Shown here: piece by piece, positions 2,774 through 46,687 of the stretch
How positions within the stretch are numbered: position 1 is the stretch's first letter
Layout: the number at the start of each line of letters is the position of its first letter
Source of the DNA: an uncultured virus (IMG/VR IMGVR_UViG_3300037067_011443)
Lineage: Duplodnaviria; Heunggongvirae; Uroviricota; Caudoviricetes
Length of the DNA: 59,238 nucleotides
Direction: 5' to 3' (one strand)
Virus record (IMG/VR): IMGVR_UViG_3300037067_011443
Position numbers and translations under genes: made by a program
Notes under the pieces: model-generated
The model's input: the letters and a program-made list of their open reading frames with translations, nothing else
Told to the model about the DNA's origin: nothing
Database searches by the model: none

Positions 2774-3527
2774 TATATAAGGAGTTGTTACAATGTGTAA
2801 GCCACAAACTAGATTTGAGTATAAAATTACCTTTGATGCTGATATCAAAAAAATTCCGGTAATTATCAATAAAATCAATGAAATACTATGCAATAGCGAA
2901 TTAAATGAACATATCACCAATATTGAGCCAACCATAACTATCATTGATAATTAATTATACTATAAAATATAACTTTCATCAAAACTGAAAAGAGGTGAAA
3001 AATATGCAACCATTTAAATGTCCAAGACGTAAAATGAAATAGATATAAAAAATGTATATACTTCTTATCTGCATGGTGAAATTATAATATAGAACTGGTA
3101 TTTTAAGTACTGTAAATTATTAACAATATCAAATAAAAAGGAGTGATTGCTAATGACTGGTAAAAATCTAGATATATTTTTAAACAACTTAAAAAATAGG
3201 TTAAATATAGCAATAAAAGAAGGAATGACATAAGAAGAAATCAAAAAAGAAATTGACCATGCAATTGGATATCAATTTGCACAAATAGAAGAAATTAAGT
3301 AATACATGAAACAGTTTCGCATTTCCTTATAAGCATTGATATTAAAGGGTTATAAAGCAATTAATACTGGACAGGATTTTAATGTTTTCATAGTTATAAT
3401 AAAAGCCGAACAGGAGTATTAAAAAATACTTCTATTTTGCTTTGTGTTTAATAAAATAAAATGTTGACAACTAAAATCATAGTGTGCTATAATGAATTAT
3501 ATCATTAATACATAGGAGGTCAACACC

Positions 3528-4205
3528 ATGACACAAAAAGAAATTAAGGAATTAAAAGAGTTTTGGAGCAGTAAAACACTAGGAGAAGTAAAAGGTTTAT
3601 ATAGTGAAAAAATGAGAATCTATAATCTGCATCAAGAAAGTATTAGAGAGAAAGCACAGGAACTTGTTAACCTTGATTTTAATAATAAATACTATGTTGA
3701 TAAAGCTAAAAATTTAATGAATGATATTAGTTTTTATAAATCCTATATAGTAGATGAAGAAAAAGAACTAAACCTTCTAAAACCTATATTAGATAAAAAA
3801 GAAATTGAAGGTATTGACCAAGCTGAATACGAAAATTATATAACTGGCAATATCAATATTCAAATACTAATTAAGGAAGTAAATGATTTAAAGCAAAATT
3901 TTATTGACAATGGTAATCAAGTAATACAGTACTACAAAGAAAAAGACGAACTAAAATCAATAGTAATTATTCTTACAGAGGAAGAAACAAAAGAAATGTA
4001 TGATATGATGTTAAAAGAAACAATAATGATATTAAAGGATAGAATCGGAAATATTGAAAAAGTTGATTATTTAAGAACAAATAATAATAAAGGTTTAGAC
4101 GGTAGATATATTGGCGAAAAAGGAACAATCACAATTAATACAATTCTTGCAGGCGGGTATAATATTCAAAAACTACATTACAGAACTTTAATATATAATA
4201 ATTAA
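3528..4205 (+). CDS. conserved phage-type hypothetical protein
   Basis: Own promoter (3464-3493), RBS and terminator. C-terminal TILAGGYNIQKLHYR motif that I recognise from phage hypothetical proteins. Confidence 0.7.
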   Translation: MTQKEIKELKEFWSSKTLGEVKGLYSEKMRIYNLHQESIREKAQELVNLDFNNKYYVDKAKNLMNDISFYKSYIVDEEKELNLLKPILDKKEIEGIDQAEYENYITGNINIQILIKEVNDLKQNFIDNGNQVIQYYKEKDELKSIVIILTEEETKEMYDMMLKETIMILKDRIGNIEKVDYLRTNNNKGLDGRYIGEKGTITINTILAGGYNIQKLHYRTLIYNN

Positions 4206-4229
4206 GAGAATCCGAAAGGGTTCTTTTTT
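4204..4229 (+). terminator. intrinsic terminator
   Basis: AGAATCC-GAAA-GGGTTCT followed by T-run. Confidence 0.75.
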
Positions 4230-4909
4230 CTTGTATATAATCTGTTACCAGTGAGCCTATATATTACCCTTTAAATGCTCATATCCTGCAAAGTGTTATA
4301 ATTGTACTAGTAAACATTCTACACGCTTAGAAACGATTATAGACGTTATAAATAACGGTACAAATTATTTTATTAAAACACTTGTATTCTGTTTTGTAGT
4401 GTGATAATATGTACTTAGTTCTTAAATCAAATACATATTTTCTAGGAGGTAATTATGTTTAATTTAGAATTATTAGAAAAGGCACAGAAATTTAATGTAA
4501 ATATTAATACATATAATAATGCTATAAATTGGTTGAAAAATGTTAATGAAATAAATTTAAGTAATGATATTGACCGAAACAATTTAGTTCTTTTAGATAA
4601 ATTAGAAAATGAAATAAACCAAGCGGAAATTAATTGGCTAAAAGCAAATAAAGATAATTTATTATTTGATGTTCAGTTTGAAGATAAAGGTTATGTTTTT
4701 GTAGATGTTTTAGAAGTCTATGATAATAAAAATAATAAAGTATATGAACAATGGTTTTACGGGGATGGAGAATCTCAGGAATTTATTGATATGATTTATG
4801 CATAGAACATGCATTTGGTTATAAAATAATTTGTATAAACACTTGCAATTATATTAATAACGTGTTAGAATTAGTTATGGTTATTAATACATATTTGGAG
4901 GTAGACAAA

Positions 4910-5446
4910 ATGACAAATTTAACACAGAGAGCAGGAGAAATATTAAGGACTTTTGAAAAGAACGGAAAGCCATATAAAGAAGTAATTGAAATTTGTTCTA
5001 GATGTGGAGGTACTGGAAACTATTCATATAATCAAAAAGATGGTACTTTGTGTTATGGTTGTAATGGTCAAGGAGTTCAAAAAATTGAAAGAAGAATTTA
5101 CACCGATAAAGAATTAGTATCACAGGAAAAAGCAAAGACAAAAAAGGTAGCTAAGAAAGAAACTGAAAGACTTGAAAAAATAGCCAATGCAGAAATTGAA
5201 AAACAGAATAGAGTAAACGAGTATATACAAAATAATCCAATTACTTATATAGTAGTTGATAAAGATAGCTACAATAAAAAAGAAATAATCAAAGCTAATA
5301 AATATAAATGGATGACTTGGCACTGGGTAGGACATAAAGAAATTGAAGGTATAGAGACAATGGCAATTGATACGAAAGACGTTATAAACGAATATGGATA
5401 TATTATAGACACAGCAATTAATGACAAGGTTAAAGGATATAAATAA
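4910..5446 (+). CDS. DnaJ-type zinc-finger hypothetical protein
   Basis: CSRCGGTG and CYGCNGQG repeats; ATG at 4910 follows GGAGG. Confidence 0.65.
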   Translation: MTNLTQRAGEILRTFEKNGKPYKEVIEICSRCGGTGNYSYNQKDGTLCYGCNGQGVQKIERRIYTDKELVSQEKAKTKKVAKKETERLEKIANAEIEKQNRVNEYIQNNPITYIVVDKDSYNKKEIIKANKYKWMTWHWVGHKEIEGIETMAIDTKDVINEYGYIIDTAINDKVKGYK

Positions 5447-7528: not shown

Positions 7529-7916
7529 TATTTAGTCAACTATGCAGTAAAATATATACTACATAAAATATAATATAATTGGAGGTTAGATATTGCATGC
7601 ATCTAAACCAAACAGACATTGACGAATTAGTTGAACAAGTTTTACAGGAGCAAGCACAAAAAGCGCAGCATAGTTAATACATAATAGTAAGTAATATTAA
7701 AAATACAGTCTATATAGGCTGTATTTTTATTTGTAGCTGATTTATTTATTAACATGGTATAATTAACCTATCAAATAAATTACAGGCTTATAACGTCATA
7801 TATAACTTTGCAATATTAGTAAGTATTATTTTATTAAAACATATTGTAATTACTCATATAATGTGTTAAGCTTGTATTGTAATTAATACATATTAAACTA
7901 CACAGGAGGTACTACA

Positions 7917-8294: not shown

Positions 8295-10143
8295 TAATAA
8301 AATAAATTAAATATAAGTATTGCAATACTATAAATAGTGTGTTATTCTTAGATTAACAAATTACATAAAGGTACTAAGTGCCTAGAGGGAGCGTAAAAGA
8401 TGAATAAAGAAAAATACGAATTAATAATGCAAATTACAAAGAAGGCTGATGAAATGGGTTTACTATGGGTATAGCCTAAACAGGCTATATTAAAACACTG
8501 GTAGCCGTTCCAAAGTCGGCACAGAATAGGAGAATAAAACATTATGAATTTAGAAAAGGGAATTGACCTTATGTATAAATATGGTTCAAAAACTGAAATA
8601 GAAAATCAAAATAAGAATATCTATGTAATTACGATTAAGTTTAAATACGAATCAATAAAAGTATCAGTAAATGAGCCAACTATTGACGGATTAATTAAAT
8701 TAATTCAATCAGATTTACATGATTCGTATTCTAAAAAAGATGATATACCAGTAACTTTTGAAGAATCAAAAAGTAATGACAGGATAAAAGTATTTAAAGT
8801 AATTGATGAGCCTTTTGGTATGTATTTTTTAAATGTTGTAATTGACCAAAAACCATTATTAATATTTTAGTGAATGAATAGTAAATTTGGTAACATTTAT
8901 TAAGGACAATAAAATAATATTAAGGAGAGTGAATATAATGTTAAATTTAAAATGTAAAAAAGAATTTGCAGTAGATGTGGAACAGTACGGAATTGATTTT
9001 TTAGTTGGTAATATATATAATGCAAAGCATGTAAATAATAATTGTTATTATATAACGTCTGAAAGTGGTTCTGATGTTGAAATGAATCAACAAGAAGTTA
9101 AGGAACACTTTACATCTACAATCTTTTAATAATGCAATAGAAAGCAAGTTTTATCATAATGTTAAATTATAGGAGGTTATATTATGAGTTATCAATTAGT
9201 AAAAAGAATCTCATTTAAAAAAGACGGAGTTTATTTTTCAGCTTGTAGTAATAATGTTATACCAAAAAATTATTATTCAGAAAAAAGTAAATATCATAGT
9301 AAGTTATTAGAATCAGAGGGAAAAGAATCAGTAATTAAAATAATATTATGGGACTTTATTTCTGGAAATTTTCAATCATTAGGCGATAATGAAAATATAA
9401 ATAAATTTTCTAATGTAGCTAAAAAAGTAAAATTAACTAATAAATATAATGAACTAAGTAATATTTATTGGGAATGGGATAACATTAAAAGAAGTATTGA
9501 AGAAAAGGAAAAGTCAAAAGAAGAAATACAAGAGTTATTATTTAATGAGTGGAATCAATAAAATAATAGGAGCGTGGCAAAATGAAATTATCTGAATACA
9601 TAGAAAATAAAAAAGTTGAACTAGTAGCCGTAAATAAATTTAAATCGGTAGAATTTAAAAGGCTAGACAATTGCCAAGTATCACAATTTATGCATTCTTG
9701 TATACTGGATTTTACGGATACAAAAATTGATACGTCAATTGAGGTTGAAGAGTTTGACCGCACCAAGTTAGGCAATACTAAAATTGATTGTATTGAAATA
9801 ACTTTTAATGTAGTAAAGCCAAGATGCAGAAAACCAGAGAGCCTAAGAACGTATGTTAAAATTAGTTAAGGGAGGGTTAATAATAATGGATATAGATAAA
9901 ATTATTGAAAGTTTACCTTTTGGTACAGGTAATTTAGGATTTAGTAATGTAGTTGGTCATGCGTTTTTTACTTCATCTTTAAGCGACAAGCCTTATTCAG
10001 TAAAAGAGAATAAAAACGATAAATATAAATATACATATACAATTGCAGGATTTCCAGTTATATTAGGAATCAGAGAAGCAATTGATAACTGTAAAGAATT
10101 AAAAGTAATATCTGATACACATATAGCAATAATATTCTAATGT

Positions 10144-12853: not shown

Positions 12854-15086
12854 TTGTCTACAGGTGTCACAGTGATGTTTTATATCCAGTATAGTAATAC
12901 AACTATATATTCAACAATAATAAACGCTCACAAAGGATTACAGAGCCTTGTAATTATGTATAGAATTATTTTAATAACCTATTGCAATCTATCCTAATAC
13001 ATGGTAAAATAAATTATAGATTTCGGACGGTGGCGTGTGAAAAATCATTTAACGAGCCATAAAATGAATATATGATAAAATAATAGTTCTATGGCTTTTT
13101 ATTTTCTAAAATGCTTGACAAAATTATATTATTAATGCTATAATAAGTTATATTAATAAATAAGGAGTGGCGAACATGAAGCAGATAAGATTATCTAATG
13201 AAATTATGACACAAATAAACACTGGAAAGATTAAAGCCGTTGAGCTAGTAAGTTACATATTAAAAACAGTTACAGGAACTAGCACCGCAAAGGAATTGAG
13301 TAATACAGGGTTAAAGGATATTAGTTTTGATGGAGAATATGCAATAAGTGGAGCAATAGACACAAGAAACAAAACACTAAACTTGATATTCTAGCAGGGA
13401 ATATTCCCTGCTTTATCTTAATAATATAATACATATGGAGGTTTTAACATGAGTAAACAACAAACATTTATAACTAAGCTAATAGACGAAAACAACAAAA
13501 TGATTGACTTTGAAAGATGGGCAGATAAAAGAATTAAAACCGTTGAAAGTAAGCTAAAAGAATTATATACAAGATATTATGGCATATATAAAAATAATAT
13601 TGAAAAATCAGAATACATAGTAATATATGAAACATTAAATAATAACGATATAGAAGTAAAACGTATTAATATAAAAGAGTTTTTAAGTCTTGCATAATTG
13701 CAAGGCTTTTAGCTTATGGAGGGTAAAATATGAATATAGAAAAATCATGTAAGAATTGCCGAGAATGTGTCCTGCAACAACAATTTACATATAATATTGA
13801 ATCTGATGTTTATTGTCTTGGTGAATCTGGATTTATTGAAGAAATAACAAAAGAATATTTAAACATTACAGAAACATTAGAGTATATGCAGGAACAAGGC
13901 TTTATAAAAAAGAATGTTAATATTAAGGAATTAGCCGAAAATGATAATATGTTAAACTTGTTAGTTGAGCAAATAGGAAACGCTGTATATTCCTTTTTAG
14001 TTAGGCAAATAAAAGGAATTAAAGTAAATTTAAAACCAGTTGATAGTAATTTTTGTTGTAAGTATTGGAGGTAAATAATATGTTAGTAATTATAGGCATT
14101 ATATTTTTATTGATATCATATATAGTTTTAAATTTTGCTTGTGCTTTTTGTGTACATCATATAGATAAACCAAAGAGAAAAGGTTTATATTCTTATTTTT
14201 TAAAATTATTAAATAAACGGCTAAATGATGAAGATGATTTTCAAAAATTAATGTTTTCGTGGGTTATTTGTATGCAAGGAATAATATTTTTAGGACTTGG
14301 CATAATCTTTATATTTTTATATATTATGACTATAGCACAATCTATATATATTTAAAACATTATGATTCCAGTATCACAAACCAACCGCACAGAATCGGCT
14401 ACAATCTATTTTTATGTACAGGGTAATACAGTTACATTAGTTGATATTGCATAGGCTTAAAATGGCTTATATATGATATTGAAAAAACACAATTTATATT
14501 AATATACTATTGACTTATGGGGATAATAAGTATAATATTATATATAGATAGTAGTTATAAAATAAATTTAGGAGGTACTTTACTATGAAAAATAATTTAA
14601 CTTATGAGGTAGTTAGCTTATTAAAACAACGTAAAATCTTAGAAATATTAGCGAAAAAAGAAATTGAAATTAATAGATGCTTTACTAATGAGGAACTAAA
14701 AAGATTTGAAAATCAAATTAATATAGATAAAAATACTCGAAAAGAAATTGATTTCTTAAAAATATGTATTTTGGATGAAGTATTAATAACTATTAATAAT
14801 ATAAAAAATAATATACTTAATAGTGTAAAAAATAATCAAATAAGCAAAGAATCAGCACAATTTTTATTAAAGGAATTAATTGGAATGCAAAACAAAAGAA
14901 CTAAGGAATTGCAATCTATAAAAAAGGATTGAGCCGAAAGGCTTTTTTCTTTTATGCCACAGAAAGTATATTTCATTCAGAAAATAAAGTTTAATTAATG
15001 TGAAAATTAGTATTGACAGTATGAATTTATGGGTATATACTAAGTACATGATAACAAAATAAATATAAATGAGGGAGAATAATAAA

Positions 15087-16346: not shown

Positions 16347-16447
16347 CAGCTATTATTTATTCTTCCAGTACATTACTATTAATATAATTAATGTACTGCA
16401 TAGAGTTAATAAAACTCAAAAATACATATAACAGGAGCGTGTATATT

Positions 16448-19252: not shown

Positions 19253-19287
19253 TACTACATAATATATAATATAGTTGAGGTGAGATA

Positions 19288-31141: not shown

Positions 31142-33264
31142 AGTATACAAAATTGGAAATGATTATTATACTCATATTAGAATTAAAAAGTGATAGAAGA
31201 CGGATTTGATGTTATAAGGGAGAAATATTATGATTACAGGTTTAGAAATTAATAGTTTGAGTAAAGAAAAACTTGAAATGCTTGAACTAACAAAGAATAC
31301 AATAGTATTGTTTAATAGTTTTGAGTTAAAAAATAAGTTTGTACAAGAATTTTCAAAAATACAAAATGATGAAACAAATAGTGATGATAATAGTATTTGT
31401 TATTGTACTATAATTGATGATGATAAGGCTTCAGAACAAGACCATAAAGCTGATATAAAGACTAATATAATTTATATGCCTACATCTATTTTTACGGTTG
31501 ATAATGAACAGAGGTTTGTATTTACAACAGAAGCTCCATTTGTTTTACAATGTAATAATCCATATGATTTATGGTTTTGCGATACTAATAATGAAAATGA
31601 AATACAGTTGTATTCTTTAGTTGGATTTAAGGGATATAAAGAAGCATGGGGAGATGGTGTTGATAATATATATAAGAATGTAATAAATGGTAGATATGGC
31701 TGTTATGAAGGATATGGTAGATAATAGTATAGAAGATGCATTTTATGATATTAATGGAGGTATATAAAATGAAACTAAGCCCTTTAAACGAACAAATGTT
31801 AAGACAATCATATCATACTTATAGAATAGGGTTTTATCTTGATAAAAGTGATATTCTCGACTTATCAGAGCCTATGAGTTTTGAAGAGTATATTAAAGAT
31901 ATTATTTAATAATACTGTTAATAAAATAAATTTAAATAATTATTGACTTGGTATTTATAAGATGCTATAATATATTTAAGGTAATAAATTACATATTAAA
32001 GGAGTGTTGAGAGATGAAAAGAGATTATATTAGAGAATTTGTAGACATTGACGGAAGAATGATACCTTATAGAATTTTTACTGCTACAGTTTATCTTGAA
32101 GAAAAAGGTTATTTGGAAGAAGAAATAGAAAAGATGTTTGAGGAACAATATGAAATGTGTCAAACATTAAATCAGATAATTGCTTTAAAACAATCATGTT
32201 ATTTATTAAGACATACATCATATAGTTGTAATAGTTTATCAGAAAATTTATTTAGTTTAAAACTAAGATTAATAAAAGAATTAAAGGATAAATACAATTT
32301 TGAATTTAATGAAGACTTAATGGAAAACGATGGAACAGATTATTTAGGATGAGATAGATGAGTGATTTTATGTACAAGTGAAAGGAAGTATAAATAAATG
32401 AATCAAAATGATTATGATAAAATTGTCGATGAAATTTGTAAAAAAGTAGTAGAAAAAAAGTATGAATGTAGAATCTTAATTAATTGTGAACATAAGAGAT
32501 GGAGTTGGGAGAATAGTTGTAATCTTTGTGGAATAAAAAATATGGATTGTATTCATATTAAAAAATAGCATAAAAATATAGTTTCATAATAAAAAGGAGG
32601 ATGGTAAAAATGAACGATAACACATTCTTAGTAACATTTCATGATAATGAATTAGGTTGCTATTCTTACAACTGGTATAAAACAGAAGAAGAAATGAGAG
32701 AAGATATAGATAAGCATCCAGAGTGGTCAGATTTTGAAGCAGGAGAAATATTAAGAGTTAGAGAAATTGAAATATAGTTTGTTCAAAACGAAGAATTTAT
32801 AACATAATGGGAGGTTTATTGTGATAACAGAACAAGATAGAATTAATATGTATGGAAATATGACTGAAGAAGAAATTAATTTAGTTTATAAACAGCAAGG
32901 TAATTATAGAGGTTGGATTTGTGCTTTTATTGGTGATGGTTCGGTGATTATGCAGAAGAAAAACCATGAAATAAGAGCACATAGAGGATGGGAATTTAAA
33001 AATTGGATTCCTGAATGTTGGATAGAGTTAAAAGAAAGAATTGATAAATTGGAAAATTGACACAGAATTTTAATTAGATGCAGATAGGAGATGTATTTAT
33101 GGGGAATGAAACTTCAATAAAAAATAATAATGAAGAATTAGACATTAAATTGACAAAAGCAGAGATATTTAAAATACAAACTGCATTACTATATTGGAAA
33201 TCAACTAAAAATAATGGATATGAGCCATTGTACATTAAAATTGCAAATCAAACAAAAATTTGTT

Positions 33265-34559: not shown

Positions 34560-34610
34560 ATAGAAGATGTATTAATTTATTTATTTTTATTAATATAAAA
34601 GGAGCGATAC

Positions 34611-34865
34611 ATAATAAAATGTCAAAATTGCAATTCAGCAGAATATATAGATGGGTTAGATACTTGTATAGAATATGGAGTTAAGCACAGAATTTATATA
34701 TGTCTAACGTGCAATGATATTCATACTGAGCCTATTTTAAGTAATCACAAACACGACAGACTTAATAAGACTAAATTTAGCGAATGTACGGCTGTCCTAG
34801 CCACTATATGTATTATATTCTATATTGTTTCTTACTTAGATAGATTCACAACTATATATCGTTAA
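34611..34865 (+). CDS. zinc-ribbon protein with hydrophobic C-terminus, ATA start
   Basis: AGGAG RBS then ATA ATA AAA TGT CAA AAT TGC; CxxC...CxxC; open for 84 codons. Not in the ORF track. Confidence 0.45.
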   Translation: MIKCQNCNSAEYIDGLDTCIEYGVKHRIYICLTCNDIHTEPILSNHKHDRLNKTKFSECTAVLATICIIFYIVSYLDRFTTIYR

Positions 34866-34945
34866 CTATTAATAATATAATTATTGCATATTTGGTAAAT
34901 GTGTGCTATGATTATATTATTCTATTTTTGGAGGTAATTACATAT

Positions 34946-35851: not shown

Positions 35852-38027
35852 AATCAAGTATGATAATATGTATTCATAAAATAAATTAAAGATTGGAGTA
35901 CATAATGATTAAATATTTAAATATTTTAAGGAATTATTTCATAGACCAAAATTAGTTTTTACAGATAGAGTAGATGGAATCTATATTACATTTGAGTAAG
36001 GAGTTAAAATTATTATATGTACATAACAAGAGATGATAGCAAGTCACCAGTACAAGATTTTTTAGATAATGTAACTCTAAAGTTAAACAGTAAGTTGTTA
36101 GCTGAGGCTGAAGAAAAGAATGGTATAGTAGTTGGATGGAATATAATACAAATTAAAATAAAATAACAGAAGAAGATATTTCATAAAAATATTAATTTGA
36201 AATTACTTAGAATATTTAGTATAATATACAAAACCAAAAAAGAGAGAAGGTTTATTTATGGTTGATTTTAGAAATATTTATAAAGATGTAATAAATAAAA
36301 TATATAATAATAAAACAAATTTAAAGTTAATAGAAGAATTTGATTCTAATGATTTAATTCAATCTGGATTAAATCAAATGAATTACATGGATTCTTTATC
36401 TTTTATAGAACAAATTATATGTTATAATAATATTTTAATTTTATTAACTACTTATGGACAATATTCTTTAACTAAAAGATATAATTATTCATCTTTATTA
36501 AATATAGATTGTATAAATGATGAAGATTGGGAAATTGGTTATGATGATTTTGAACAAGATGTAGAAAATAAATATATTTATGTTAGCACATATATACGTA
36601 ATATAGAACTTAATGGTTGGTGTCATTTAAAAATATTATCAAATGAGTTTGTAAAATATTTAGATGATGGTGGAGATATTACTATTTCAGAAGCAATGTT
36701 GAAACCTAAAACTAGAGCAAATGCTAAAGATATAAATATTTCAAAATTCTGTGAACATGTTTATGAATATTGGGATGTTTTTAAAAATTGGATAGTTCCA
36801 GATTATATGGAGGAATTACCTAATGATTGGGATAATTATAGTTTTATGAAAATCAAATTTATAATTAATAGAATGATGCAAATAGAATAACATGATAGAA
36901 TACTTGTTTCGTAGAAAGTGTAAAAATGGAGGACAAAATGAAAGGAATTAAAATATCAGAAAGTGATAGATGTCATGGATGTTTTTTATCTCCTAGATGG
37001 TTTGTAAAGATTATAGATGGATATTATAGATGTCCAGAGTGTAAAACACTATATAACAAGGTACATAACGGAATATATAAAGTAGTCGAAACGAAATAAG
37101 TGTTTTAACTTAATAAAAAAGGAGAATAATTATATGGATATATTAACTCAAGTACTAGATAAAATAGAAAAAACAATTGAAGTAGGTAGTATGCTGAATT
37201 TATTTGAGGTAGGTTTAGCCTTAAAGGTATTAGAAGATAGACTTTGGAGTATTGATGACACTTTAGCTCAAAGATGTAATAATTTGCAACACAAGATTTT
37301 TGGCGAATAAATAAAGAGGTGATAAAAATGAAAAAGATATTAGGTATTATGTTAGGAATTTGTATAGTAATAGGTTCAGCATATATGAGTTATATGTTAG
37401 GAAGTAAAATTATAGCTGATTATTATTTATATGGCACATTAGGAGTTGTTATAAGTTTTATAGTAGGTGTGATATTATTTAGCATAGTAATAGCTATTGT
37501 GTCAATAATTTTAAGAAAAATAAATATAAAAATAACTTAGAATTCTGAATCTATCCACTATTAAAATAAGTTTAAGGAGGCTAATTTATGATAAGAGACC
37601 CTATGTTAACCCAACAGGCAATATACATGTATAGAACATATCTATTATCCTTTAGTATGGATGATATTATAGATTGTAAAATATTATCTTTTGATGATTG
37701 GGTAATTAAAAATAAGATATTTGAAGAATATTGGAATAAGTGAAGGGAGATAAATTGATGAGAATTGAATTAAATATACAATCAGATAATCATAATTTAT
37801 ATTGTGAAAATAAAATACTTTTTTTTGAATTTTTTAATGATGGAGGAATTCGTGAAAATCATGTTTGGATAAATATAGATGGTAGAGAAGTTTCTGTAAA
37901 TAAAGATGAGTTAAAGAAAGTATTATCAATTCTTTAATAAGAAACAAAAACAAAATGTTATAAAAATCCTATTCCATAGTGTTTTATTAATAAAATAAAA
38001 TTATATAAGAAAGGCTGTGTAGTTAAA

Positions 38028-39115: not shown

Positions 39116-39193
39116 ACTAATATAGTAATTATATTTAAACTATATACATACTAAATTTTATATTAGTAAATTTATAATAAGGAGTTAAAGTTA

Positions 39194-39763
39194 ATGAATA
39201 TTTTCAAAGGAGAAATTTGGAAAGTTAATTTATCAGATAAAATAAAAGAAGGTGTAAATACACAACGACAATTAGGGGTTAGACCTTGTTATATAAGTTC
39301 TAATAACTTGTATAATAAATATAGCCCTACTGTACAGATAATACCGTTTACGTCACAAGAGAAAAAATTTAGTCCAGTACATGTATATATACCTATGTCA
39401 TGTGGATTAACAAAAGTATCAACAGCATTAGTAGAGAAAGAAACTGACATTGATAAAACTGATTTAATTGAAAAAATTGGCGAATGTTCTATAGAAATTC
39501 AAAAAGAAATTGAACGAGCAATACAAAAACAAAAAGGTATGGTTGAACCATTTGATATTTATAGAGTTAAAAAACTAACAAATGCTATTATTCAAGTTTA
39601 TAAAAATAAAGAGTTAGATACTAGTGGATTAATTAAATCAGCATTACTTGATGAATTTAAATGGTATTGCGGTTCTTATGGTTATGATTATAAGCTTATT
39701 TTTAATAAATACAAGAACAACTGTAAAATTGAAAATAATGTTAGAAAACTTATAGCAATTTAA
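39194..39763 (+). CDS. mazF: PemK/MazF-family endoribonuclease with ~70-aa C-terminal extension
   Basis: KGEIWKVNL...QLGVRP...NKYSPTV.IIPFTS...HVYI...GL..VSTALVE...IDK..LIEKIG; the catalytic Arg and Thr positions appear retained. Confidence 0.85.
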   Translation: MNIFKGEIWKVNLSDKIKEGVNTQRQLGVRPCYISSNNLYNKYSPTVQIIPFTSQEKKFSPVHVYIPMSCGLTKVSTALVEKETDIDKTDLIEKIGECSIEIQKEIERAIQKQKGMVEPFDIYRVKKLTNAIIQVYKNKELDTSGLIKSALLDEFKWYCGSYGYDYKLIFNKYKNNCKIENNVRKLIAI

Positions 39764-41580: not shown

Positions 41581-41595
41581 TTTAGAGAGGAGAAA

Positions 41596-41919: not shown

Positions 41920-42019
41920 AAATATAAATTTCTGTTGACAATATGGTATGCAATTCATATAATATTACATATATAATAATTATATATTAAATAAGATTAT
42001 ATGAAGGTGAGGTATTACC

Positions 42020-43360
42020 ATGTTAAGAAACAGAATAGAATTAGAAAAAGAATTAAATGAGATAATAACTATAAATCAAGATTTAAGGGTAGCATCTAAT
42101 GCTATTAAAAATTTATTTATTGAAAAAGGTATATCTGTAGCAGAGTTTAATGATATTTGGACTAAACGAAAATCATTAAATGATATAGATATGCCTTCTT
42201 TATATGTGCTTACTAAATCATTATTTGAAATTACTCAAAATAAAAATATAAAATTAGAAGATTGGTTTACTGAGGTTGAAATTAGAGATGGAAATAATTA
42301 TGTTAGAGAAATATCTGAAGAAGAAAAAATTGAATATCCTATTGTTATTAAAAATGTTTTAAAAGGAAAAGAAGACCAATATATGGCATATATTCAAGGA
42401 AGCTTTATTAAATTGTTATTTTCTAGTGGTAAAATTCCATATAATTTTGATACACAGCGAAATCCAAAGATAAAAAAAGATGAATCCGATGAATTAATAA
42501 AAACAGCTAATATTAATCCTGAATCTGTTATGGAAATAGCCAAAGAAATGGATGATAAAACTTTTATTACAAATTGTATTACTTTAAATATTTTACAAGA
42601 TGGTACTGAGAAGTTTGAATATAATTCAAAAAGAGAATTGATTATATATTCTGGACAAATAAATCCTATTGATGGGTTTCATCGTATTCAAGCAATGTTA
42701 GTAGCATTAGCGGAAAATCCTTCTTTGGAGTATATTACTGAAGTTCGTTTCACTCATTGGGATGTACAAAAATGTAGAAATTTTATTTTTCAAGAAGATA
42801 AGAGAAATAAGATTGACAAACGATATATGAATAGTATTATTAATGTTAGTAAATGGGGTAATAAAGTTATTAGTTCATTAAACGAAAGTAATTCTGATAT
42901 TAAAGGAAAAATTGTTACAGATATAACTTATATTATAAAAAATAAAGCTTTAACAATGTTTGATATAATGTCAAATACTATTGATGAACTTTATGAAATA
43001 AAAACAAATAAAGATATGTTAGATTTATCAAAATGGTTAGGAACATTCTTTGACCAAATAATTGGTTCGTATCCTGATGAGTTTCTTAGTGAAATTGGAG
43101 AAACAAAATTAGTAAGTGTTATTAATATGCCATTAACATTTGTTGGATATTTAACATTATCTAAAGTTTTACAAAATGAAAGTAATTGGGAAGACAAATT
43201 AGGTGAAATGTTAGATAGATTAGATTTTAGTATAACTAATCCTCAATGGGATAAATTAGGTATTATTAAAAATAATAAAGCAATTTTGACATATTCAAAA
43301 CCAGCTATGACTAAAATAATCAATTTTTTTGAGAAAGAAGTAGGTATTATTAATGTATAA
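42020..43360 (+). CDS. DndB/DGQHR-domain protein, SPbeta YopQ-like
   Basis: YNFDTQR, ITLNI, IDGFHR and FIFQE motifs; size and position directly upstream of the MrpR-like gene. Confidence 0.75.
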   Translation: MLRNRIELEKELNEIITINQDLRVASNAIKNLFIEKGISVAEFNDIWTKRKSLNDIDMPSLYVLTKSLFEITQNKNIKLEDWFTEVEIRDGNNYVREISEEEKIEYPIVIKNVLKGKEDQYMAYIQGSFIKLLFSSGKIPYNFDTQRNPKIKKDESDELIKTANINPESVMEIAKEMDDKTFITNCITLNILQDGTEKFEYNSKRELIIYSGQINPIDGFHRIQAMLVALAENPSLEYITEVRFTHWDVQKCRNFIFQEDKRNKIDKRYMNSIINVSKWGNKVISSLNESNSDIKGKIVTDITYIIKNKALTMFDIMSNTIDELYEIKTNKDMLDLSKWLGTFFDQIIGSYPDEFLSEIGETKLVSVINMPLTFVGYLTLSKVLQNESNWEDKLGEMLDRLDFSITNPQWDKLGIIKNNKAILTYSKPAMTKIINFFEKEVGIINV

Positions 43361-44369
43361 TGAGGAATTAAAAAAGAGATATTTATCATCGTCAATATAT
43401 GATAGTAAAACTCAAAAAACTTATCTTTCTGATTTAAATCGTATTGGTGAATCTGAAGATTATTTTAAAAAGGATTTATTTAATTTCACATATGAACAAA
43501 TTGATGAAGCTTTAAAAGGTATTCAATTTAAAAAACAATCTTCAGTGGAACGAGCAGTTTCTACTTATAGAATGTATTCTAATTGGGCAAACCAAAATGG
43601 ATTTGTTCCTTCAAAAACTAATCTATGGGAACTATATACTATGGAAAAATTATCACAGTATGTTTGGGAGTATGCTTTAGATAATAGTTTTATAACTAGG
43701 GAACAATTATTTAATGATATTATTTCTAAAGTTGAAAATCCTTTAGATTATATTCCTACACTATTAACTTTTGAAGGTATTTATGGTAGGACTATGGACG
43801 AAATGATAAATTTAAAATACAAAGATATTAATTTTAAGACGGGTGTTGTAAAATTAACTAGTAACTCAGGAGAGCAAAGAAGTATTATTTTAAAAGATAA
43901 AAGAATACTAAATCTTATACAAGATGCAGAAATGGAGACCACTTATTATGCAGATAATGGTAGGTCTGAAGGATTTAATGCTAAATCAAGTATTATTATG
44001 ACACCTTTCGTAATTAGAAAAACTACTTTAAAAAGTATTATAAAATATGCCAGTAATGATGGTTTGTTTTATGGAAATGAAAAAGTTGGAGTAATGACAA
44101 TTGAAGCTAGATTTGCAAGAATATTTCGAGGATATAGACATCCAAATCCCAATAAATGCAAAGCACCTTTTGTTGAAGGATTTTCTTTCTTAAATGCAAC
44201 TAATATATTTAAATCTGGATATTTTGATTATTGTTTAAATATAGAGAAAGAAAAAGGAGAATTAGAATTTAAAGATTTTGAATTAGCTTGTGTAAGATAT
44301 GGTATTAGACCTGTCTTAGCATCAACATATAAAAAGCAATATTTAAATTGGAGAAATAGGTTAAAGTAA
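43353..44369 (+). CDS. MrpR/YopR-like lytic-cycle repressor (tyrosine-recombinase fold, probably catalytically inactive)
   Basis: MYNEELKKRYL...E.YF.KDLF.F; FEGIYG...EMINLKYKDI lacks the first catalytic Arg; NIFKSG replaces HxxR; overlaps the YopQ-like gene. Confidence 0.75.
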   Translation: MYNEELKKRYLSSSIYDSKTQKTYLSDLNRIGESEDYFKKDLFNFTYEQIDEALKGIQFKKQSSVERAVSTYRMYSNWANQNGFVPSKTNLWELYTMEKLSQYVWEYALDNSFITREQLFNDIISKVENPLDYIPTLLTFEGIYGRTMDEMINLKYKDINFKTGVVKLTSNSGEQRSIILKDKRILNLIQDAEMETTYYADNGRSEGFNAKSSIIMTPFVIRKTTLKSIIKYASNDGLFYGNEKVGVMTIEARFARIFRGYRHPNPNKCKAPFVEGFSFLNATNIFKSGYFDYCLNIEKEKGELEFKDFELACVRYGIRPVLASTYKKQYLNWRNRLK

Positions 44370-44827
44370 ATTGAGGTGAATAATTTTGGAAATAAATAAT
44401 GAAATAGATTTAATAAAACATCTTGATAATCAAAGAAATTTTATTCTTTTTTATTTTAAAGAGACAATGACATTAGGTTATCAAAGAAACGAGAATAAAA
44501 AATTAGCTAATACTTTGGAATGTATAGAAAATTTATTGTTTAAGTTAACATTCTCAAATCTCAAACGCTTACTTTCAGAGTCTAGTAATAGAAGACTGAA
44601 AGAAATAGTTAGTGGAGAACAATTATTAATAGATATTATTAATTTGCCATTTGATTATAGATTGATTATTGATATGGAAAACATTGATGATATAGATACT
44701 TCTAACGCACTAGTATTCAAAGCTGTAAATAAAAAGTATTGTATGTTCAAACATAAGAATTATTGTAATAAGCAAGGTTTAGAATATGTGCGTGGGAAAT
44801 GGCAAAATATATGAAAGGGGTAAGATT

Positions 44828-45247
44828 ATGAATTTTGGTGAAAAATTAGAAATGTTAAGAATTAAATCAGGATTAAATAAAAAACAACTTGGAGAAAAAG
44901 TTGAAGTAGCTGCTGATACGATAAGTAAATATATAAAAAAAGAAACTGTAGAAGGAATTGATGCAATAGTTATAAAGAGAATTGCTGGTTTTTTTGGAGT
45001 TTATGTTGATTATCTGACAAATAATACTGAAAGTTTACTTATTGATATTCAAAAAGATGATTTAAATTATTTACACTGTGAAGAAAAAAACGATATAGAT
45101 TTAGTTAATTTTGTTAGTGAATTTAAGTATTATATAGAAACTTTAAATTTTGTTTATAACTCATCAAAACTAGAAACAGAAAAGAAGAAATATATAATAG
45201 ATTCATTAGGAATTGGATTAAAACTATTAGAAGAAAATTCTAAATAA
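44828..45247 (+). CDS. XRE-family transcriptional regulator
   Basis: FGEKLEMLR...LGEKVEVAADTISKY...IAGFFGVYVDYL. Confidence 0.85.
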   Translation: MNFGEKLEMLRIKSGLNKKQLGEKVEVAADTISKYIKKETVEGIDAIVIKRIAGFFGVYVDYLTNNTESLLIDIQKDDLNYLHCEEKNDIDLVNFVSEFKYYIETLNFVYNSSKLETEKKKYIIDSLGIGLKLLEENSK

Positions 45248-45265
45248 TAAAAGAGGATTATTATC

Positions 45266-45649
45266 ATGGGTAGAAAATCAAAGGAATATAGTAAAGAAGA
45301 ACTTATAAATAATTTAAAAATTAAATATGAAGAATTGGGTAAAAGACCAATTATGGCTGATATGTCTAATCCTTTTCCCTCGGCATATTTAAGAGTTTTT
45401 AAAACTTGGCGTAATGCATTAAAAGAAGCCGGATTAGATAAAGCTACAATAAATAAAAAGACAATTCTTGAAAATATATTAACAGGTGAAAAATCAAGGC
45501 TCAGATATAATAAGTGTATATGTTGTGGACAACCTTCAAATGGATTAATTATGAAAGGTAATCAAGTTAGAAGTGCATTTTGTAAAAATTGTTATATAGG
45601 AAAACTAATTGAATTACCTAAAGGTCAACGGTTTGAATATTTTAGATAG
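45266..45649 (+). CDS. homing-endonuclease-associated repeat plus zinc ribbon
   Basis: YSKEELI...ELGKRP...YLRVFKTWRNALKEAGL; CICCG...CKNC. Confidence 0.65.
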   Translation: MGRKSKEYSKEELINNLKIKYEELGKRPIMADMSNPFPSAYLRVFKTWRNALKEAGLDKATINKKTILENILTGEKSRLRYNKCICCGQPSNGLIMKGNQVRSAFCKNCYIGKLIELPKGQRFEYFR

Positions 45650-46687
45650 ATAACTTATAAGGGCTTTATAGCCCTTCCTATATAATTAAATAAAATAGTA
45701 AATAAAGGGGATGACAAAATTGAGAAGTAAAGAGTTTAAGTTTACAAAAATAAAAAAAAGAAAGATATATGAAACATGGATTAATAAAGATTATAAATCT
45801 AAAATTGTCATATATATTCTTAAAACGCCAAAGAATTATATAAATAGTGAGTATTATCACTTCCAAATCTCAAGTACTAAGAGTTTAAAATATGATATAA
45901 GATATGATTCCATATATGATTTACAAATATTTAATACATATAATGAAGTAGAGAATGCAGTAAAGAATTGGTGGCATAAGAATTTAAAAGGCTAATATAG
46001 TCTTCTTTTTATATTTTATTGTTATTAAAATAAATTTACGTAATATATATTGACATGTAAAAGTGTATGTGATATTATGTATTTGTAAGATAAAGGTAGA
46101 TACATAAAAAGTGCAGCAAATTGGAATTTTATAATAAGTGGAGGAAGATAAATGAAAGAGTTAATTGTTAAGGGTAAAGCAAGTCAATTAAATGGATTTG
46201 ATTGGGAGTTTGTAACAAGCGAAAAAAATTACTCATCAGATATATTAGTTGGAATTGATGAATTACTTGTTAGTAACAATATAGTAGTTATTGATAATAA
46301 TGAAGAAATTGAAGTTGTCATTAGATTTAAAAACAGATTATAAATTCTGTGTTTTGAGTAAAGTTAAGGAGGGTTGTAATTATGAAACAAATGCCTAAAG
46401 GTATTAAAGACAAACTTAGAAGGTTATATAATCTAAAAGAAAAAGCTCAAGATTTAGAATTTATTTTAAGCGCTGATTTTCAGAAATATGGAATAGATAT
46501 TAATGATTTATCAGCTATGGGTAAGGGAGATGTGCAGACAGAAGCATATACTTTTATAACTTATGCTGAAGGTGATGTTGAAGAAAGTATTAATATGATT
46601 GAAAAAGTGTTTTTACATTATGCAAATAATAAAGAAATAACTGAATGAAATTAACCTTTCATAATAAATTTAGAGGAGGATACATAA

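What the first reader, a model, noticed from the sequence alone, without database searches (positions are those of the whole stretch)
3507..46685. MazF cleavage pentamer UACAU placed in the 5' leaders of about half of the transcription units
Seen: sense-strand TACAT (often AATACATA) between the -10 box and the start codon at 3509, 4432, 4888, 7887, 8362, 15045, 22371, 23606/23631, 27265, 31990, 34939, 35899, 39145 (mazF's own leader), 41966 (yopQ-like) and 46101. That is 15 of ~27 promoters by my count. It also lies next to RBS/start codons at 7560, 13430, 16423, 19256, 22526 (antirepressor), 34608 and 46681. Known: MazF of B. subtilis, S. aureus and C. difficile cuts UACAU. Inference: the early transcriptome is wired for one-step silencing or processing by MazF (its own or the host's), with mazF autoregulation. 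Alternative: the motif is part of a DNA operator.
Basis: partly seen in the sequence, partly recalled or inferred. Interest (0 to 1): 0.85.

Follow-up and report, generated by a model that had tools for sequence, protein, structure and literature searches.

The report
MazF-type cut sites in phage leaders
In this uncultured SPbeta-like phage, a six-letter RNA motif that matches the known cutting site of the bacterial RNase MazF is concentrated at the 5' ends of its early messages, which suggests one nuclease could switch many early genes off together.

Summary
All 23 listed TACAT sites exist. With promoters called blind to the motif, 13 of 29 leaders carry sense TACAT against 3.7-4.5 expected. 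None of 2000 shuffles reached 13, and antisense ATGTA is in 1 of 29. TACAT is the top non-Shine-Dalgarno 5-mer in leaders. It ranks first among composition-matched words.

The enrichment is confined to transcribed leaders and the first 60 nt of coding regions. 11 of 14 leader sites read TACATA, the strict in-vivo hexamer of Bacillota MazF (PMC11780869).

Six of six YopQ-bearing SPbeta-like lineages over-represent sense TACATA, and five of five unrelated Bacillota phages avoid it. The phage has a 189-aa "long" MazF upstream of yopQ-mrpR, as in c-st and a metagenomic relative.

The MazF-site reading is the best explanation (about 0.6), but cleavage is untested. The phage MazF has a divergent specificity loop. 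The leader focus is weak in relatives, and own-leader autoregulation is not conserved. I rate it a new variant of the known SPbeta/phi3T-MazF link.

The parts
3509..3514 (+). TACATA in the leader of gene 3528-4205; 16 nt after the -10 of promoter 3464-3493; abuts the SD
4432..4437 (+). TACATA in the leader of gene 4455-4805; its promoter (4382-4410) scores 11.1, below my cut-off of 12
4888..4893 (+). TACATA in the leader of gene 4910-5446; 17 nt after the -10 of promoter 4843-4871 (TRTG-type -16 region)
7887..7892 (+). TACATA in the leader of gene 7917-8294; that gene has a second TACATA 7 nt into its CDS
8362..8367 (+). TACATA 14 nt after the -10 of promoter 8320-8348; upstream of a very short ORF, 182 nt before gene 8544
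15045..15049 (+). TACAT followed by G, 4 nt after the -10 of promoter 15013-15041; probably at or before the transcription start; not the hexamer
22371..22375 (+). TACAT followed by T in the leader of the RHH gene 22395-22556; the only in-transcript leader site that is not the hexamer
23606..23610 (+). TACAT followed by C, 4 nt after the -10 of promoter 23574-23602; forms a palindrome with the preceding ATGTA; probably not transcribed whole
23631..23636 (+). TACATA in the leader of gene 23657-24184, 29 nt after the -10
27265..27270 (+). TACATA between the SD and the start of gene 27270-27719; its last A is the A of the ATG
31990..31995 (+). TACATA in the leader of gene 32014-32352, 19 nt after the -10 of promoter 31943-31971
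34939..34944 (+). TACATA between the SD and the start of the UvdE gene 34946-35851; the gene has three more TACATA in its CDS
35899..35904 (+). TACATA between an SD-like GGAG and an ATG of a very short ORF; not in my objective promoter set
39145..39150 (+). TACATA in the 78-nt leader of the long mazF gene, 30 nt after the -10 of promoter 39087-39115
41966..41971 (+). TACATA 3 nt after the -10 of the yopQ-like promoter 41935-41963; probably spans the transcription start
46101..46106 (+). TACATA in the 73-nt leader of gene 46152-46343, 23 nt after the -10 of promoter 46050-46078
7560..7565 (+). TACATA upstream of an SD in intergenic region 7529-7916; no gene called there
13430..13435 (+). TACATA 2 nt before the SD of gene 13449-13697; non-promoter junction
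16423..16428 (+). TACATA 6 nt before the SD of gene 16448-17224
19256..19261 (+). TACATA before the SD of gene 19288-19551
22526..22531 (+). TACATA ending on the ATG of gene 22531-22884, inside the end of the RHH gene
34608..34613 (+). TACATA just after an SD-like sequence in intergenic region 34548-34945
46681..46686 (+). TACATA between the SD and the start of the GmrSD_N-like gene 46688-47239
39194..39763 (+). Long MazF (189 aa): PemK/MazF domain at aa 5-112 plus a conserved C-terminal three-helix domain; no TACATA in its CDS
42020..43360 (+). YopQ-like (DndB family) gene; no TACATA in its CDS
43353..44369 (+). MrpR/YopR/SroF-like integrase-fold repressor gene; no TACATA in its CDS

Best explanation
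The sense-strand TACATA words are RNA sites, U^ACAUA. This is the strict recognition and cleavage hexamer of the canonical MazF (EndoA) endoribonuclease of Bacillota. In this SPbeta/c-st-like phage they have been kept, by selection, at the 5' ends of early messages: in the leaders of about 45% of predicted sigma-A promoters and in the first ~60 nt of coding regions.

Proposed mechanism (inferred):
- MazF activity rises in the infected cell. The source could be the host's MazF, the phage's own long MazF encoded just upstream of yopQ-mrpR, or that protein releasing host MazF.
- One cut removes the triphosphate 5' end. In a few cases it also removes the SD.
- This leaves a 5'-OH RNA that the 5'-exonuclease RNase J can degrade.
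- Many early transcription units are therefore shut off together. This could be an early-to-late switch or a push towards lysogeny.

What is shown here by computation:
- the enrichment, its strand, its position, and the hexamer extension;
- a MazF-fold gene in the lysogeny module, and its synteny in two relatives;
- over-representation across the family, against avoidance in unrelated phages.

What is inferred: that cleavage happens, which MazF does it, and what it does to expression.
For: - Leaders: 13 of 29 hold TACAT against 3.7-4.5 expected; 0 of 2000 and 0 of 1000 shuffles reach this. The antisense word is in 1 of 29.
- Unbiased ranking: TACAT is third of all 5-mers, after two SD words (z 5.9). 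TACATA is fourth among 6-mers, after three SD words. TAATACAT is the top 8-mer.
- Composition-matched control: TACATA is first of 60 A3T2C1 hexamers in leaders (10 against a mean of 1.25), first in the 50 nt upstream of starts (13 against 3.4), and first in the first 60 nt of CDS.
- Internal negative controls: intergenic DNA upstream of promoters gives 13 against 13.2; non-promoter junctions give 7 against 4.6.
- The base after TACAT is A in 11 of 14 leader sites (binomial P 0.011). Leaders are 45% A.
- In vivo, B. subtilis EndoA cuts only U/ACAU followed by A (PMC11780869, passages). The same hexamer holds for the B. subtilis, Listeria and S. aureus enzymes, and MazF is reported as fully conserved in the genus Clostridium (preprint 10.64898/2026.08.06.743204, passages).
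- In coding regions the hexamer is modestly over-represented: 44 against 32.2 with synonymous shuffles (z 3.1), with the antisense word at 31 against 32.8.
- 16 of those 44 lie in the first 60 nt (length share 0.169, P 0.0015). 11 of the 16 are in genes without their own promoter.
- Family level: sense TACATA has z +3.0 to +12.7, rank 1-12 of 60, and a sense/antisense ratio of 1.35-2.19 in the window, c-st, SPbeta, L007, Staphylococcus SPbeta-like phage and Geobacillus E3. In SPP1, phi3626, phiCD119, phi105 and phage K it has z -0.4 to -4.3, rank 49-60, and a ratio of 0.18-0.62.
- The enrichment follows the transcribed strand. Early genes of E3 and the staphylococcal phage are on the minus strand.
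- The phage encodes a MazF: Pfam PF02452 E 8e-16. The AF2 model has pLDDT 92.5. The best structural matches are S. aureus and B. subtilis MazF, with TM 0.88-0.91. The catalytic Arg-Pro and Thr equivalents are kept.
- A homologous long MazF lies just upstream of yopQ, with one gene between in c-st, in both c-st and L007.
- Literature context: SPbeta and phi3T ORFs are enriched in UACAU (10.1101/2023.04.27.537455, passages). [quoted passage not shown]
Against: - There is no cleavage or expression data. No RNA run is listed, and the host is unknown because no whole genome is held.
- The phage MazF has Arg where canonical MazFs have the loop Glu, and Lys where 64 of 69 long MazFs have Gln. Ala substitution of the loop Glu nearly abolished activity in another MazF (PMC8634880, passages). 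Its activity and specificity cannot be assumed.
- No MazE-like gene was recognised in the window.
- Predicted unpaired probability of the sites is no higher than the rest of the leaders (0.50 against 0.56, P 0.70).
- The leader focus is strong only here. In c-st it is 4 of 15 leaders against 1.6 (P about 0.05). In SPbeta it is 3 of 20 against 1.2, not significant. In L007 it is 0 of 5.
- The mazF and yopQ leaders of c-st and L007 lack the motif.
- Flanks are conserved beyond the hexamer (A at -2 in 74% of intergenic sites; TAATACAT), which no MazF rule I read explains.
- All 5 promoters with a GTGT -16 region have the motif (Fisher P 0.011), and three share TTAATACATA. Some sites may therefore share descent rather than being independent.
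- The core resembles one arm of the SPbeta SPBRE operator.
- Genes and promoters come from my own crude callers.
- The control set is five phages, some only in part, and the SPbeta-like lineages are related to each other.
Confidence: 0.6

Rival explanations
1. The motif is a DNA site: an operator or roadblock just downstream of a class of early promoters. It would be bound by the MrpR-like repressor or by one of the phage's HTH proteins.
For: - The core ATACAT(A) resembles one arm of the SPbeta SPBRE, the MrpR operator. I derived that operator from 9 of the 10 published target promoters as an ATACA...TGTAT inverted pair in the promoter spacer (PMC10516654, passages).
- The motif sits 3-30 nt after the -10 box.
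- It goes with a promoter subclass: 5 of 5 GTGT promoters have it.
- Flanks are conserved beyond the MazF hexamer.
- Because every promoter is on one strand, the strand bias alone cannot tell DNA from RNA.
Against: - Only about 9-10 nt are conserved, and there is no partner arm (ATGTA in 1 of 29 leaders). SroF/MrpR reads a 24-26 bp box as a monomer, and its box differs even between SPbeta and phi3T (10.1101/2025.11.27.690993, passages).
- A separate repeated word, TTAT[AC]TTAATAA, occupies promoter spacers. It is the better operator candidate.
- The motif is also enriched in the first 60 nt of internal genes, and across coding regions in relatives.
- Its spacing to the -10 box is variable.
Confidence: 0.12
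2. The motif is an RNA site for something other than MazF. Candidates are a phage or host RNA-binding protein acting on translation initiation regions (in the manner of T4 RegA), another endonuclease, or the seed target of a small RNA.
For: - The enrichment hugs translation initiation regions: upstream 50 nt and the first 60 nt of CDS.
- Flanks are conserved beyond the hexamer.
- The phage MazF has a divergent loop.
- Large intergenic regions could encode small RNAs. One example is a strong promoter at 698-726 with no ORF.
Against: - The top non-SD word is exactly the experimentally strict MazF hexamer.
- Unrelated Bacillota phages avoid the same sense word. That points to a widespread host factor harmful to phage RNA, as MazF is.
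- No Rfam family is found in the window.
- Antisense copies of the extended motif are rare (TATGTAT occurs 4 times in intergenic DNA).
Confidence: 0.13
3. There is no dedicated function. The count reflects duplicated promoter-leader cassettes plus AT-rich composition.
For: - Several promoters look paralogous, with shared upstream words, a GTGT -16 region and TTAATACATA.
- Collapsing them would lower the number of independent events.
- The leader focus is not reproduced clearly in relatives.
Against: - Between the -10 box and the motif the putative paralogues are not alignable, so the motif was kept while its surroundings diverged.
- 8 of the 13 motif-bearing leaders are outside the GTGT class.
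- Dinucleotide, composition-matched and upstream-DNA controls all fail to reproduce the count.
- Six lineages are enriched and five are depleted.
Confidence: 0.1

Closest known systems
Host MazEF in the arbitrium lysis-lysogeny switch of Bacillus phages phi3T and SPbeta (Guler et al.; Zamora-Caballero et al.)
   Same: The phage family is the same (yopQ and mrpR/sroF homologues). Sense UACAU(A) is in excess in phage transcripts. I reproduced this for SPbeta with the hexamer: 103 against 36.0 +- 5.3. MazF activity is tied to the lysogeny module.
   Different: In this window the excess sits in 5' leaders and 5' coding ends rather than along ORFs. The published count was made on ORFs only (methods passage of 10.1101/2023.04.27.537455). 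This phage carries its own long MazF where SPbeta has yopM-yopP, and no AimR-AimP-AimX set was recognised. The host is an unknown low-GC organism, not Bacillus.
T4 RegB endoribonuclease (recalled, not read here)
   Same: It works alike. A phage-encoded sequence-specific RNase inactivates many early mRNAs by cutting a short motif in their translation initiation regions.
   Different: RegB cuts GGAG within the SD and belongs to another fold. Here the motif is UACAUA, mostly upstream of the SD, the nuclease would be MazF-fold, and it may be the host's.
Canonical Bacillota MazF (EndoA, MazF-sa) and its U^ACAUA regulon
   Same: The N-terminal fold is the same (TM 0.88-0.91). The Arg-Pro and Thr equivalents are kept. 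The motif is identical to the in-vivo hexamer.
   Different: The phage protein is 189 aa with an extra conserved three-helix C-terminal domain. It lacks the loop Glu and has no adjacent RHH MazE recognised. It belongs to a separate long-MazF group: 67 of the 150 listed representatives were picked by me and aligned over the full length.
SPBRE / Phi3TRE operators of MrpR (YopR, SroF)
   Same: These are also repeated short elements at many early promoters of the same phage family, and the ATACA core is similar.
   Different: SPBRE lies inside the promoter spacer, is an inverted pair or a 24-26 bp box, and is not transcribed. The TACATA word lies downstream of the -10 box and in coding regions, as a single copy in the sense orientation.

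Membership tests
MazF (U^ACAUA) cleavage sites | The sequence equals the strict hexamer UACAUA on the RNA strand | tested here: met
The rule comes from PMC11780869 and 10.64898/2026.08.06.743204 (passages).
MazF (U^ACAUA) cleavage sites | The site lies in single-stranded RNA | tested here: inconclusive
   Predicted unpaired probability is 0.50 against 0.56 for other leader hexamers, n = 11, P 0.70. Transcription starts are predicted, not mapped.
MazF (U^ACAUA) cleavage sites | Cleavage between U and A leaving a 5'-OH, dependent on MazF | not testable with these tools
   No RNA run is listed. Read laying laid nothing.
MazF (U^ACAUA) cleavage sites | A UACAUA-specific MazF is present in the infected cell | tested here: inconclusive
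   The phage MazF is present but has a divergent loop. The host genome is not held. MazF is reported as conserved throughout Clostridium (preprint passage).
MazF/PemK toxin family (for ORF 39194-39763) | Profile match above the curated threshold, and a MazF fold | tested here: met
   PF02452 scores 58.6 bits against a cut-off of 23.1. Foldseek gives E 5e-12, and TM 0.91 to 4mdx.
MazF/PemK toxin family (for ORF 39194-39763) | Catalytic Arg (Arg25), the neighbouring Pro, and Thr48 equivalents | tested here: met
   R30, P31 and T53 align to these residues and are kept in 66, 64 and 61 of 69 long MazFs. Residue roles are from PMC8634880 (passages).
MazF/PemK toxin family (for ORF 39194-39763) | Loop Gly-Ser-Glu-Gln-Gly-Gly, with the conserved Glu | tested here: not met
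   The window has Thr-Gln-Arg-Gln-Leu-Gly. Only 8 of 69 long MazFs have Glu at that column.
MazF/PemK toxin family (for ORF 39194-39763) | An adjacent cognate MazE antitoxin gene | tested here: not met
   Neither neighbour has a MazE/AbrB/RHH Pfam hit. The downstream gene is a TPR protein, not homologous to the c-st neighbour. PADLOC gave nothing.
SPBRE-type MrpR/SroF operator | A 15-26 bp conserved box located in the promoter | tested here: not met
   Conservation spans about 9-10 nt. The sites lie after the -10 box and in coding regions.
SPbeta-like phage (for the window as a whole) | A yopQ-yopR (mrpR) pair, and early genes on one strand | tested here: met
   DndB-family YopQ homologue next to a gene with the MrpR_N_CB domain. 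About 28% identity to SPbeta YopQ over 97% of the length. 128 of 130 called genes are on the + strand.

The most novel reading that the evidence does not exclude
Clostridial SPbeta-like phages have brought the MazF arm of the lysis-lysogeny switch into their own genome. They carry a long MazF, with an added three-helix domain, directly upstream of yopQ-mrpR. The UACAUA words in the early leaders are its regulon.

When the long MazF acts, either as a nuclease or as a decoy that frees the host's MazF from MazE, it decapitates about half of the early transcription units in one step. The mazF-to-mrpR coding regions stay site-free.

This would be a RegB-like early shut-off built from a toxin-antitoxin nuclease. 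It would also be the missing mechanism by which MazF promotes lysogeny in this phage family.
Probability: 0.25. Interest if true: 0.85.

Novelty: new variant of a known kind. Interest (0 to 1): 0.68.

Why it matters
How MazF pushes SPbeta-family phages towards lysogeny is an open question. PMC10769878 calls the mechanism 'uncharacterized'. This window offers a concrete and testable answer: single strict MazF sites placed in the 5' leaders of early operons. A cut there would expose a whole polycistronic message to 5'-exonuclease decay.

The window also shows two further things:
- The link between this phage family and MazF extends beyond Bacillus. Some relatives carry their own long form of MazF inside the lysogeny module.
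- The same hexamer is avoided by unrelated Bacillota phages. This would make UACAUA content a simple genomic marker of how a phage relates to host MazF.

None of this has been tested at the bench.

Tried and rejected
**Searches for close relatives, to test leader conservation**
- Megablast of 35-55 kb against phages: no match.
- Viral contigs with the MazF: no distinct locus.
- Genome contigs with YopQ: none.
- Metagenome contigs: three loci. One is identical. One lacks the leader. One is only 48% identical, with 0 of 5 leaders carrying the motif.
- The word-index protein search found only the query itself.
- A 'near' search of plasmids failed on a length slip and was not repeated.

**Expression data**
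- No RNA holder is listed.

**Tests that were negative or not significant**
- RNA accessibility of the sites: no difference.
- 'Lysogeny module is site-free': the 3969-nt gap after 41966 is only the second largest in the window, and P(max gap) is about 0.48.
- Rfam: no family.
- PADLOC on the mazF-mrpR block: only a methyltransferase hit.
- RHH protein 22395-22556 as a MazE relative: no meaningful PDB sequence match.
- TPR neighbour against c-st CST028: not homologous.

**Not available, failed or not pursued**
- A PHROGs scan failed on a too-short entry and was not repeated.
- The idea of an antisense small RNA targeting the motif was not followed systematically.
- Complex prediction was not used. 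I make no binding claim.

Full report
**What the window is.** It is 59 kb at about 25% GC, and 128 of 130 called genes are on the + strand. Pfam finds:
- a DndB-family YopQ homologue (42020-43360);
- next to it, a gene with the MrpR N-terminal domain (43353-44369);
- an AntA antirepressor, UvdE, and ClpX-like and AAA ATPases;
- at 39194-39763, a 189-aa protein whose first 112 residues are a PemK/MazF domain.

YopQ is about 28% identical to that of SPbeta over 97% of its length. The MazF finds a full-length relative (31% identity, 93% coverage) in Clostridium phage c-st. The DNA occurs in groundwater and landfill metagenome runs only. No whole genome is held. So this is the early region of an uncultured SPbeta/c-st-like phage of a low-GC Bacillota host.

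**Check of the observation.** Every listed coordinate holds TACAT on the + strand. The word is not enriched in the window as a whole: 272 against 283 +- 18 on both strands. It is not enriched in intergenic DNA as a whole either: 36 sense against 33 antisense.

I then called promoters without regard to the motif. I used a weighted -35/-10/TG/spacer score and took the best site per intergenic region of 60 nt or more, with score >=12 and leader <=200 nt. This gave 29 promoters.
- 13 of the 29 leaders hold TACAT (14 sites), against 4.46 +- 1.78 in dinucleotide shuffles. The maximum was 11 in 2000 shuffles.
- ATGTA is in 1 of 29, against 3.57 expected.
- At score cut-offs 11, 12, 13 and 15 the counts are 14 of 34, 13 of 29, 11 of 23 and 9 of 16. 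Each time 0 of 1000 shuffles reached the observed value.
- A promoter-free version, using up to 50 nt upstream of 114 starts, gives 18 against 9.8 +- 2.9 (P 0.007). ATGTA there is 6 against 15.0.

**Was the motif picked after the fact?** I ranked all k-mers present in four or more leaders against shuffles.
- TACAT is third among 5-mers, behind GGAGG and AGGAG (13 against 3.57, z 5.9).
- TACATA is fourth among 6-mers, behind three SD words (10 against 1.96).
- TAATACAT is the top 8-mer (5 against 0.26).

Among the 60 hexamers of the same composition, TACATA is first (10 of 29 leaders; mean 1.25, sd 1.88). The runners-up are its own frame-shifts. Among 30 matched pentamers TACAT is first (13; mean 2.13).

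**Where the signal is and is not.**
- Intergenic DNA upstream of the promoters (24 stretches, 4212 bp) shows nothing: TACAT 13 against 13.2, ATGTA 16 against 13.7.
- The 85 junctions without a called promoter show a weak, non-significant excess: 7 against 4.6, P 0.17. One of these is the 4432 leader, whose promoter scored 11.1.
- In coding regions the pentamer is at expectation (83 against 80.1).
- The hexamer is over-represented in sense only: 44 against 32.2 by synonymous-codon shuffle (z 3.1), 23.3 by codon permutation (z 4.4), and 31.4 by dinucleotide shuffle (z 2.1). TATGTA is 31 against 33-37.
- 16 of the 44 coding sites lie in the first 60 nt (length share 0.169, binomial P 0.0015). They fall in all three frames.
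- 11 of those 16 are in the 99 genes without their own promoter.

So the word concentrates on the 5' ends of messages and of genes. A DNA operator is not expected to behave this way.

**The hexamer.** Two papers report that the enzyme is stricter.
- In B. subtilis cells, only U/ACAU followed by A is cut. The cut leaves a 5'-OH end (PMC11780869, passages).
- A 2026 preprint reports the same hexamer for the B. subtilis, Listeria and S. aureus enzymes. It reports MazF in 80% of Bacillota species, and in all species of Clostridium (10.64898/2026.08.06.743204, passages).

In the window, A follows TACAT in 11 of 14 leader sites, where leaders are 45% A (binomial P 0.011).

The three leader sites without A are 15045, 22371 and 23606. 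Two of them (15045 and 23606), together with 41966, lie 3-4 nt after the -10 box. That is upstream of the predicted start, taken as 7 nt after the -10 box. Of the 11 sites inside predicted transcripts, 10 are the hexamer. This is the strongest single point for the MazF reading, because that rule was not used to find the sites.

**Relatives and controls.** I ran the same gene caller and counts on other phages, taking as transcripts the upstream 50 nt plus the coding regions.

| Phage | z | Rank of 60 | Sense:antisense |
|---|---|---|---|
| *YopQ-bearing lineages* | | | |
| This window | +3.5 | 1 | 1.68 |
| c-st, 1-90 kb (toxin locus left out) | +3.2 | 3 | 1.73 |
| SPbeta, whole | +12.7 | 3 | 2.19 |
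| L007, metagenomic (YopQ 48% identical) | +3.6 | 1 | 1.78 |
| Staphylococcus SPbeta-like phage, 1-50 kb | +3.0 | 12 | 1.35 |
| Geobacillus E3, 91-141 kb | +5.6 | 5 | 2.00 |
| *Unrelated phages* | | | |
| SPP1 | -2.0 | 57 | 0.33 |
| phi3626 | -3.0 | 60 | 0.18 |
| phiCD119, 1-50 kb | -2.2 | 52 | 0.56 |
| phi105 | -0.4 | 49 | 0.62 |
| phage K, 1-40 kb | -4.3 | 59 | 0.18 |

All six YopQ-bearing lineages are up and all five unrelated phages are down.

The SPbeta result repeats, with the hexamer, what Guler et al. reported for ORFs (10.1101/2023.04.27.537455, passages).

Three caveats apply. The six lineages are relatives. The controls are few and partly incomplete genomes. Gene calls are my own.

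The leader focus seen in the window is weaker elsewhere:
- c-st: 4 of 15 leaders against 1.6 (P about 0.05), and upstream-50 TACATA 7 against 2.8 (P about 0.02);
- SPbeta: 3 of 20 against 1.2, not significant;
- L007: 0 of 5.

**The operator alternative.** From the ten MrpR-bound promoter regions named in PMC10516654, I recovered the SPBRE in nine. It lies in the promoter spacer and holds an ATACA...TGTAT inverted pair. This explains why SPbeta's upstream regions are rich in antisense TATGTA (10 against 2.9). One arm resembles the window's ATACAT core, which is a point for the operator rival.

Against it:
- SroF/MrpR reads a 24-26 bp box as a monomer, and the phi3T box is unlike the SPbeta one (10.1101/2025.11.27.690993, passages).
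- The window motif is conserved over only about 9-10 nt.
- It has no inverted partner.
- It also occurs in coding 5' ends.

A different repeated word, TTAT[AC]TTAATAA (10 copies), sits in or next to promoter spacers. One copy is just upstream of the mazF promoter. I consider it the likelier repressor box.

**The phage's MazF.**
- By sequence, its nearest solved relatives are S. aureus MazF and B. subtilis EndoA (E about 2e-8).
- An AF2 model built on 69 sequences has pLDDT 92.5 and pTM 0.74. It shows a MazF barrel (residues 1-114) followed by three helices (122-188).
- Foldseek's best hits are S. aureus and B. subtilis MazF, with target-normalised TM 0.88-0.91 over about 119 columns. The helical domain is unmatched.
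- The exhaustive search gave 2117 proteins at E <= 1e-3. I picked 67 of the 150 listed, about 170-235 aa long and matched far into the C-terminal part. Together with the L007 protein, they align over the full length. The C-terminal pattern is conserved; for example, Cys159 is kept in 67 of 69.
- The Arg-Pro and Thr equivalents of the catalytic residues are kept.
- The loop Glu is Arg here, and is Ile or Val in 45 of 69 long MazFs.
- The Gln of the conserved Glu-Gln pair is Lys here, as in only 2 of 69 (residue roles from PMC8634880, passages).

The protein is therefore a MazF by fold, but its activity and specificity are open.

Homologues sit just upstream of yopQ in both relatives. In c-st the order is CST027, one gene, then the YopQ and YopR homologues. 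In L007 the MazF-like ORF is 32% identical over 161 aa including the extension, it lies directly upstream of the YopQ-like gene, and a 328-aa ORF that I did not test follows. No MazE-like gene was recognised in the window.

**Mechanism proposed.**
- Shown: the placement, strand and hexamer form of the sites; a MazF-fold gene in the lysogeny module; the contrast between the phage family and unrelated phages.
- Inferred: MazF activity cuts U^ACAUA in the leader. The source could be the host's enzyme, the phage's own, or the phage protein titrating host MazE as YopM/phi3T_93 are reported to do.
- In most leaders the site is 0-40 nt upstream of the SD, so the cut would leave an intact cistron with a 5'-OH end.
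- In B. subtilis such ends are trimmed. The comparable glmS product is degraded by RNase J1 (PMC11780869, passages). One cut could therefore doom a whole operon.
- In five cases (27265, 34939, 35899, 34608, 46681) the site lies between an SD or SD-like sequence and the start codon, so the cut would remove that SD.
- The coding regions of mazF, its two downstream neighbours, yopQ and mrpR have no TACATA. However, the site-free gap is not statistically unusual.
- Whether the outcome is early shut-off or a bias to lysogeny cannot be told from sequence.

**What is known and what is new.**
- Known: SPbeta/phi3T ORFs are rich in UACAU. Host MazF, phage anti-MazF proteins (AimX, YosL) and MazE binders shape the arbitrium decision. 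The site is the hexamer.
- Not found by me in print: concentration of the sites in 5' leaders; a phage-borne long MazF as part of the yopQ-mrpR module (the c-st gene has long been annotated as MazF-like); and avoidance of the hexamer by unrelated Bacillota phages.
- I saw listings and abstract starts only from these, and read passages of the seven papers cited here. This is not an exhaustive search. The supplements of the preprints, and the published Nature Microbiology version of Guler et al., were not seen.

**Verdict.** It is a new variant of a known kind. Confidence in the MazF-site reading is about 0.6.

Noticed in passing
window 2176, 4849, 10271, 13148, 13413, 19745, 22316, 27215, 37105, 39070 (12-mer starts): A repeated word TTAT[AC]TTAATAA (10 copies with up to 1 mismatch) lies in or beside promoter spacers. 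In five promoters it directly follows the -35 box. One copy is just upstream of the mazF promoter. It is a candidate box for the MrpR-like repressor, analogous in position to SPBRE.
   Followed up: partly
window 41567-41578: This is the only GAAC-N4-GTTC match in the window (0.17 expected). It lies between the -10 box and the SD of the 107-aa ORF 41596-41919, directly upstream of yopQ-mrpR. It fits the Bacillus LexA-box consensus as I recall it. It may mark a Sar-like SOS-controlled antirepressor, as described for phi3T and SPbeta.
   Followed up: partly
window leaders near 3448, 5488, 6236, 11591, 14976, 31918, 35873, 37987, 52161, 54932: A second leader word, ATAAAATAA(A)TT, recurs mainly in leaders that lack TACATA. 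TAAAATAA is in 6 of 29 leaders against 0.79 expected. Its function is unknown.
   Followed up: no
window 39194-39763; L001 22935-23597; L007 4838-5431: There is a distinct 'long MazF' group of about 180-215 aa. It has a conserved C-terminal three-helix domain with a nearly invariant Cys and a Tyr-rich pattern. Most members lack the canonical loop Glu. It has many representatives in metagenomes, no PADLOC model hit, and no adjacent MazE in the window.
   Followed up: partly
loci L009, L010, L011, L014, L015: Five unrelated Bacillota phages (SPP1, phi3626, phiCD119, phi105, K) strongly avoid sense TACATA (rank 49-60 of 60 matched hexamers) but not its antisense. This looks like selection against host MazF cutting.
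   Followed up: partly
window 696-1596: This 901-nt gene-free region starts with a near-consensus promoter (698-726, 11 of 12 matches). A hairpin followed by a T-run lies near 810-840, seen by eye; the terminator scan did not call it. The region also has several direct and inverted repeats, including two TTAATACATA copies at 1027 and 1052. It may be a small RNA or a replication or regulatory region.
   Followed up: partly
window 22395-22884: A 53-aa ribbon-helix-helix protein (DUF6364/RHH_1) overlaps the start of a 117-aa ORF of no known family. The layout is toxin-antitoxin-like. The RHH protein has no sequence match to a solved MazE.
   Followed up: partly
L003 and L004 (SPbeta), upstream of yorE, aimR, yonT, yonP, yonX, yorZ, yosX, yopV, yopM: The published SPBRE sites share an 11-mer (up to 1 mismatch) in 9 of 10 regions. 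They are embedded in a promoter-like unit, with a TAGACA-type -35, the element as spacer, and a TATAAT-like -10. The yorM region did not match.
   Followed up: yes
L001 and L008 (c-st leaders at 43860, 57220, 79918 in record coordinates): c-st has its own repeated leader cassette of about 70 nt, shared by at least three early genes and unlike the window's leaders.
   Followed up: no
L007 about 3990-4086: The leader of ORF 4087-4284 consists largely of a long GATA tandem repeat.
   Followed up: no
window 23682-23691: A run of 10 N lies inside gene 23657-24184. This gene was left out of protein scans and coding-region shuffles.
   Followed up: no
window promoters 3464, 4843, 8320, 34884, 46050 (also 4382 and 7844): A promoter subclass has a TRTG-type -16 region (GTGT before the -10 box) and weak hexamers. 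All five in the objective set have TACAT leaders (Fisher P 0.011).
   Followed up: partly
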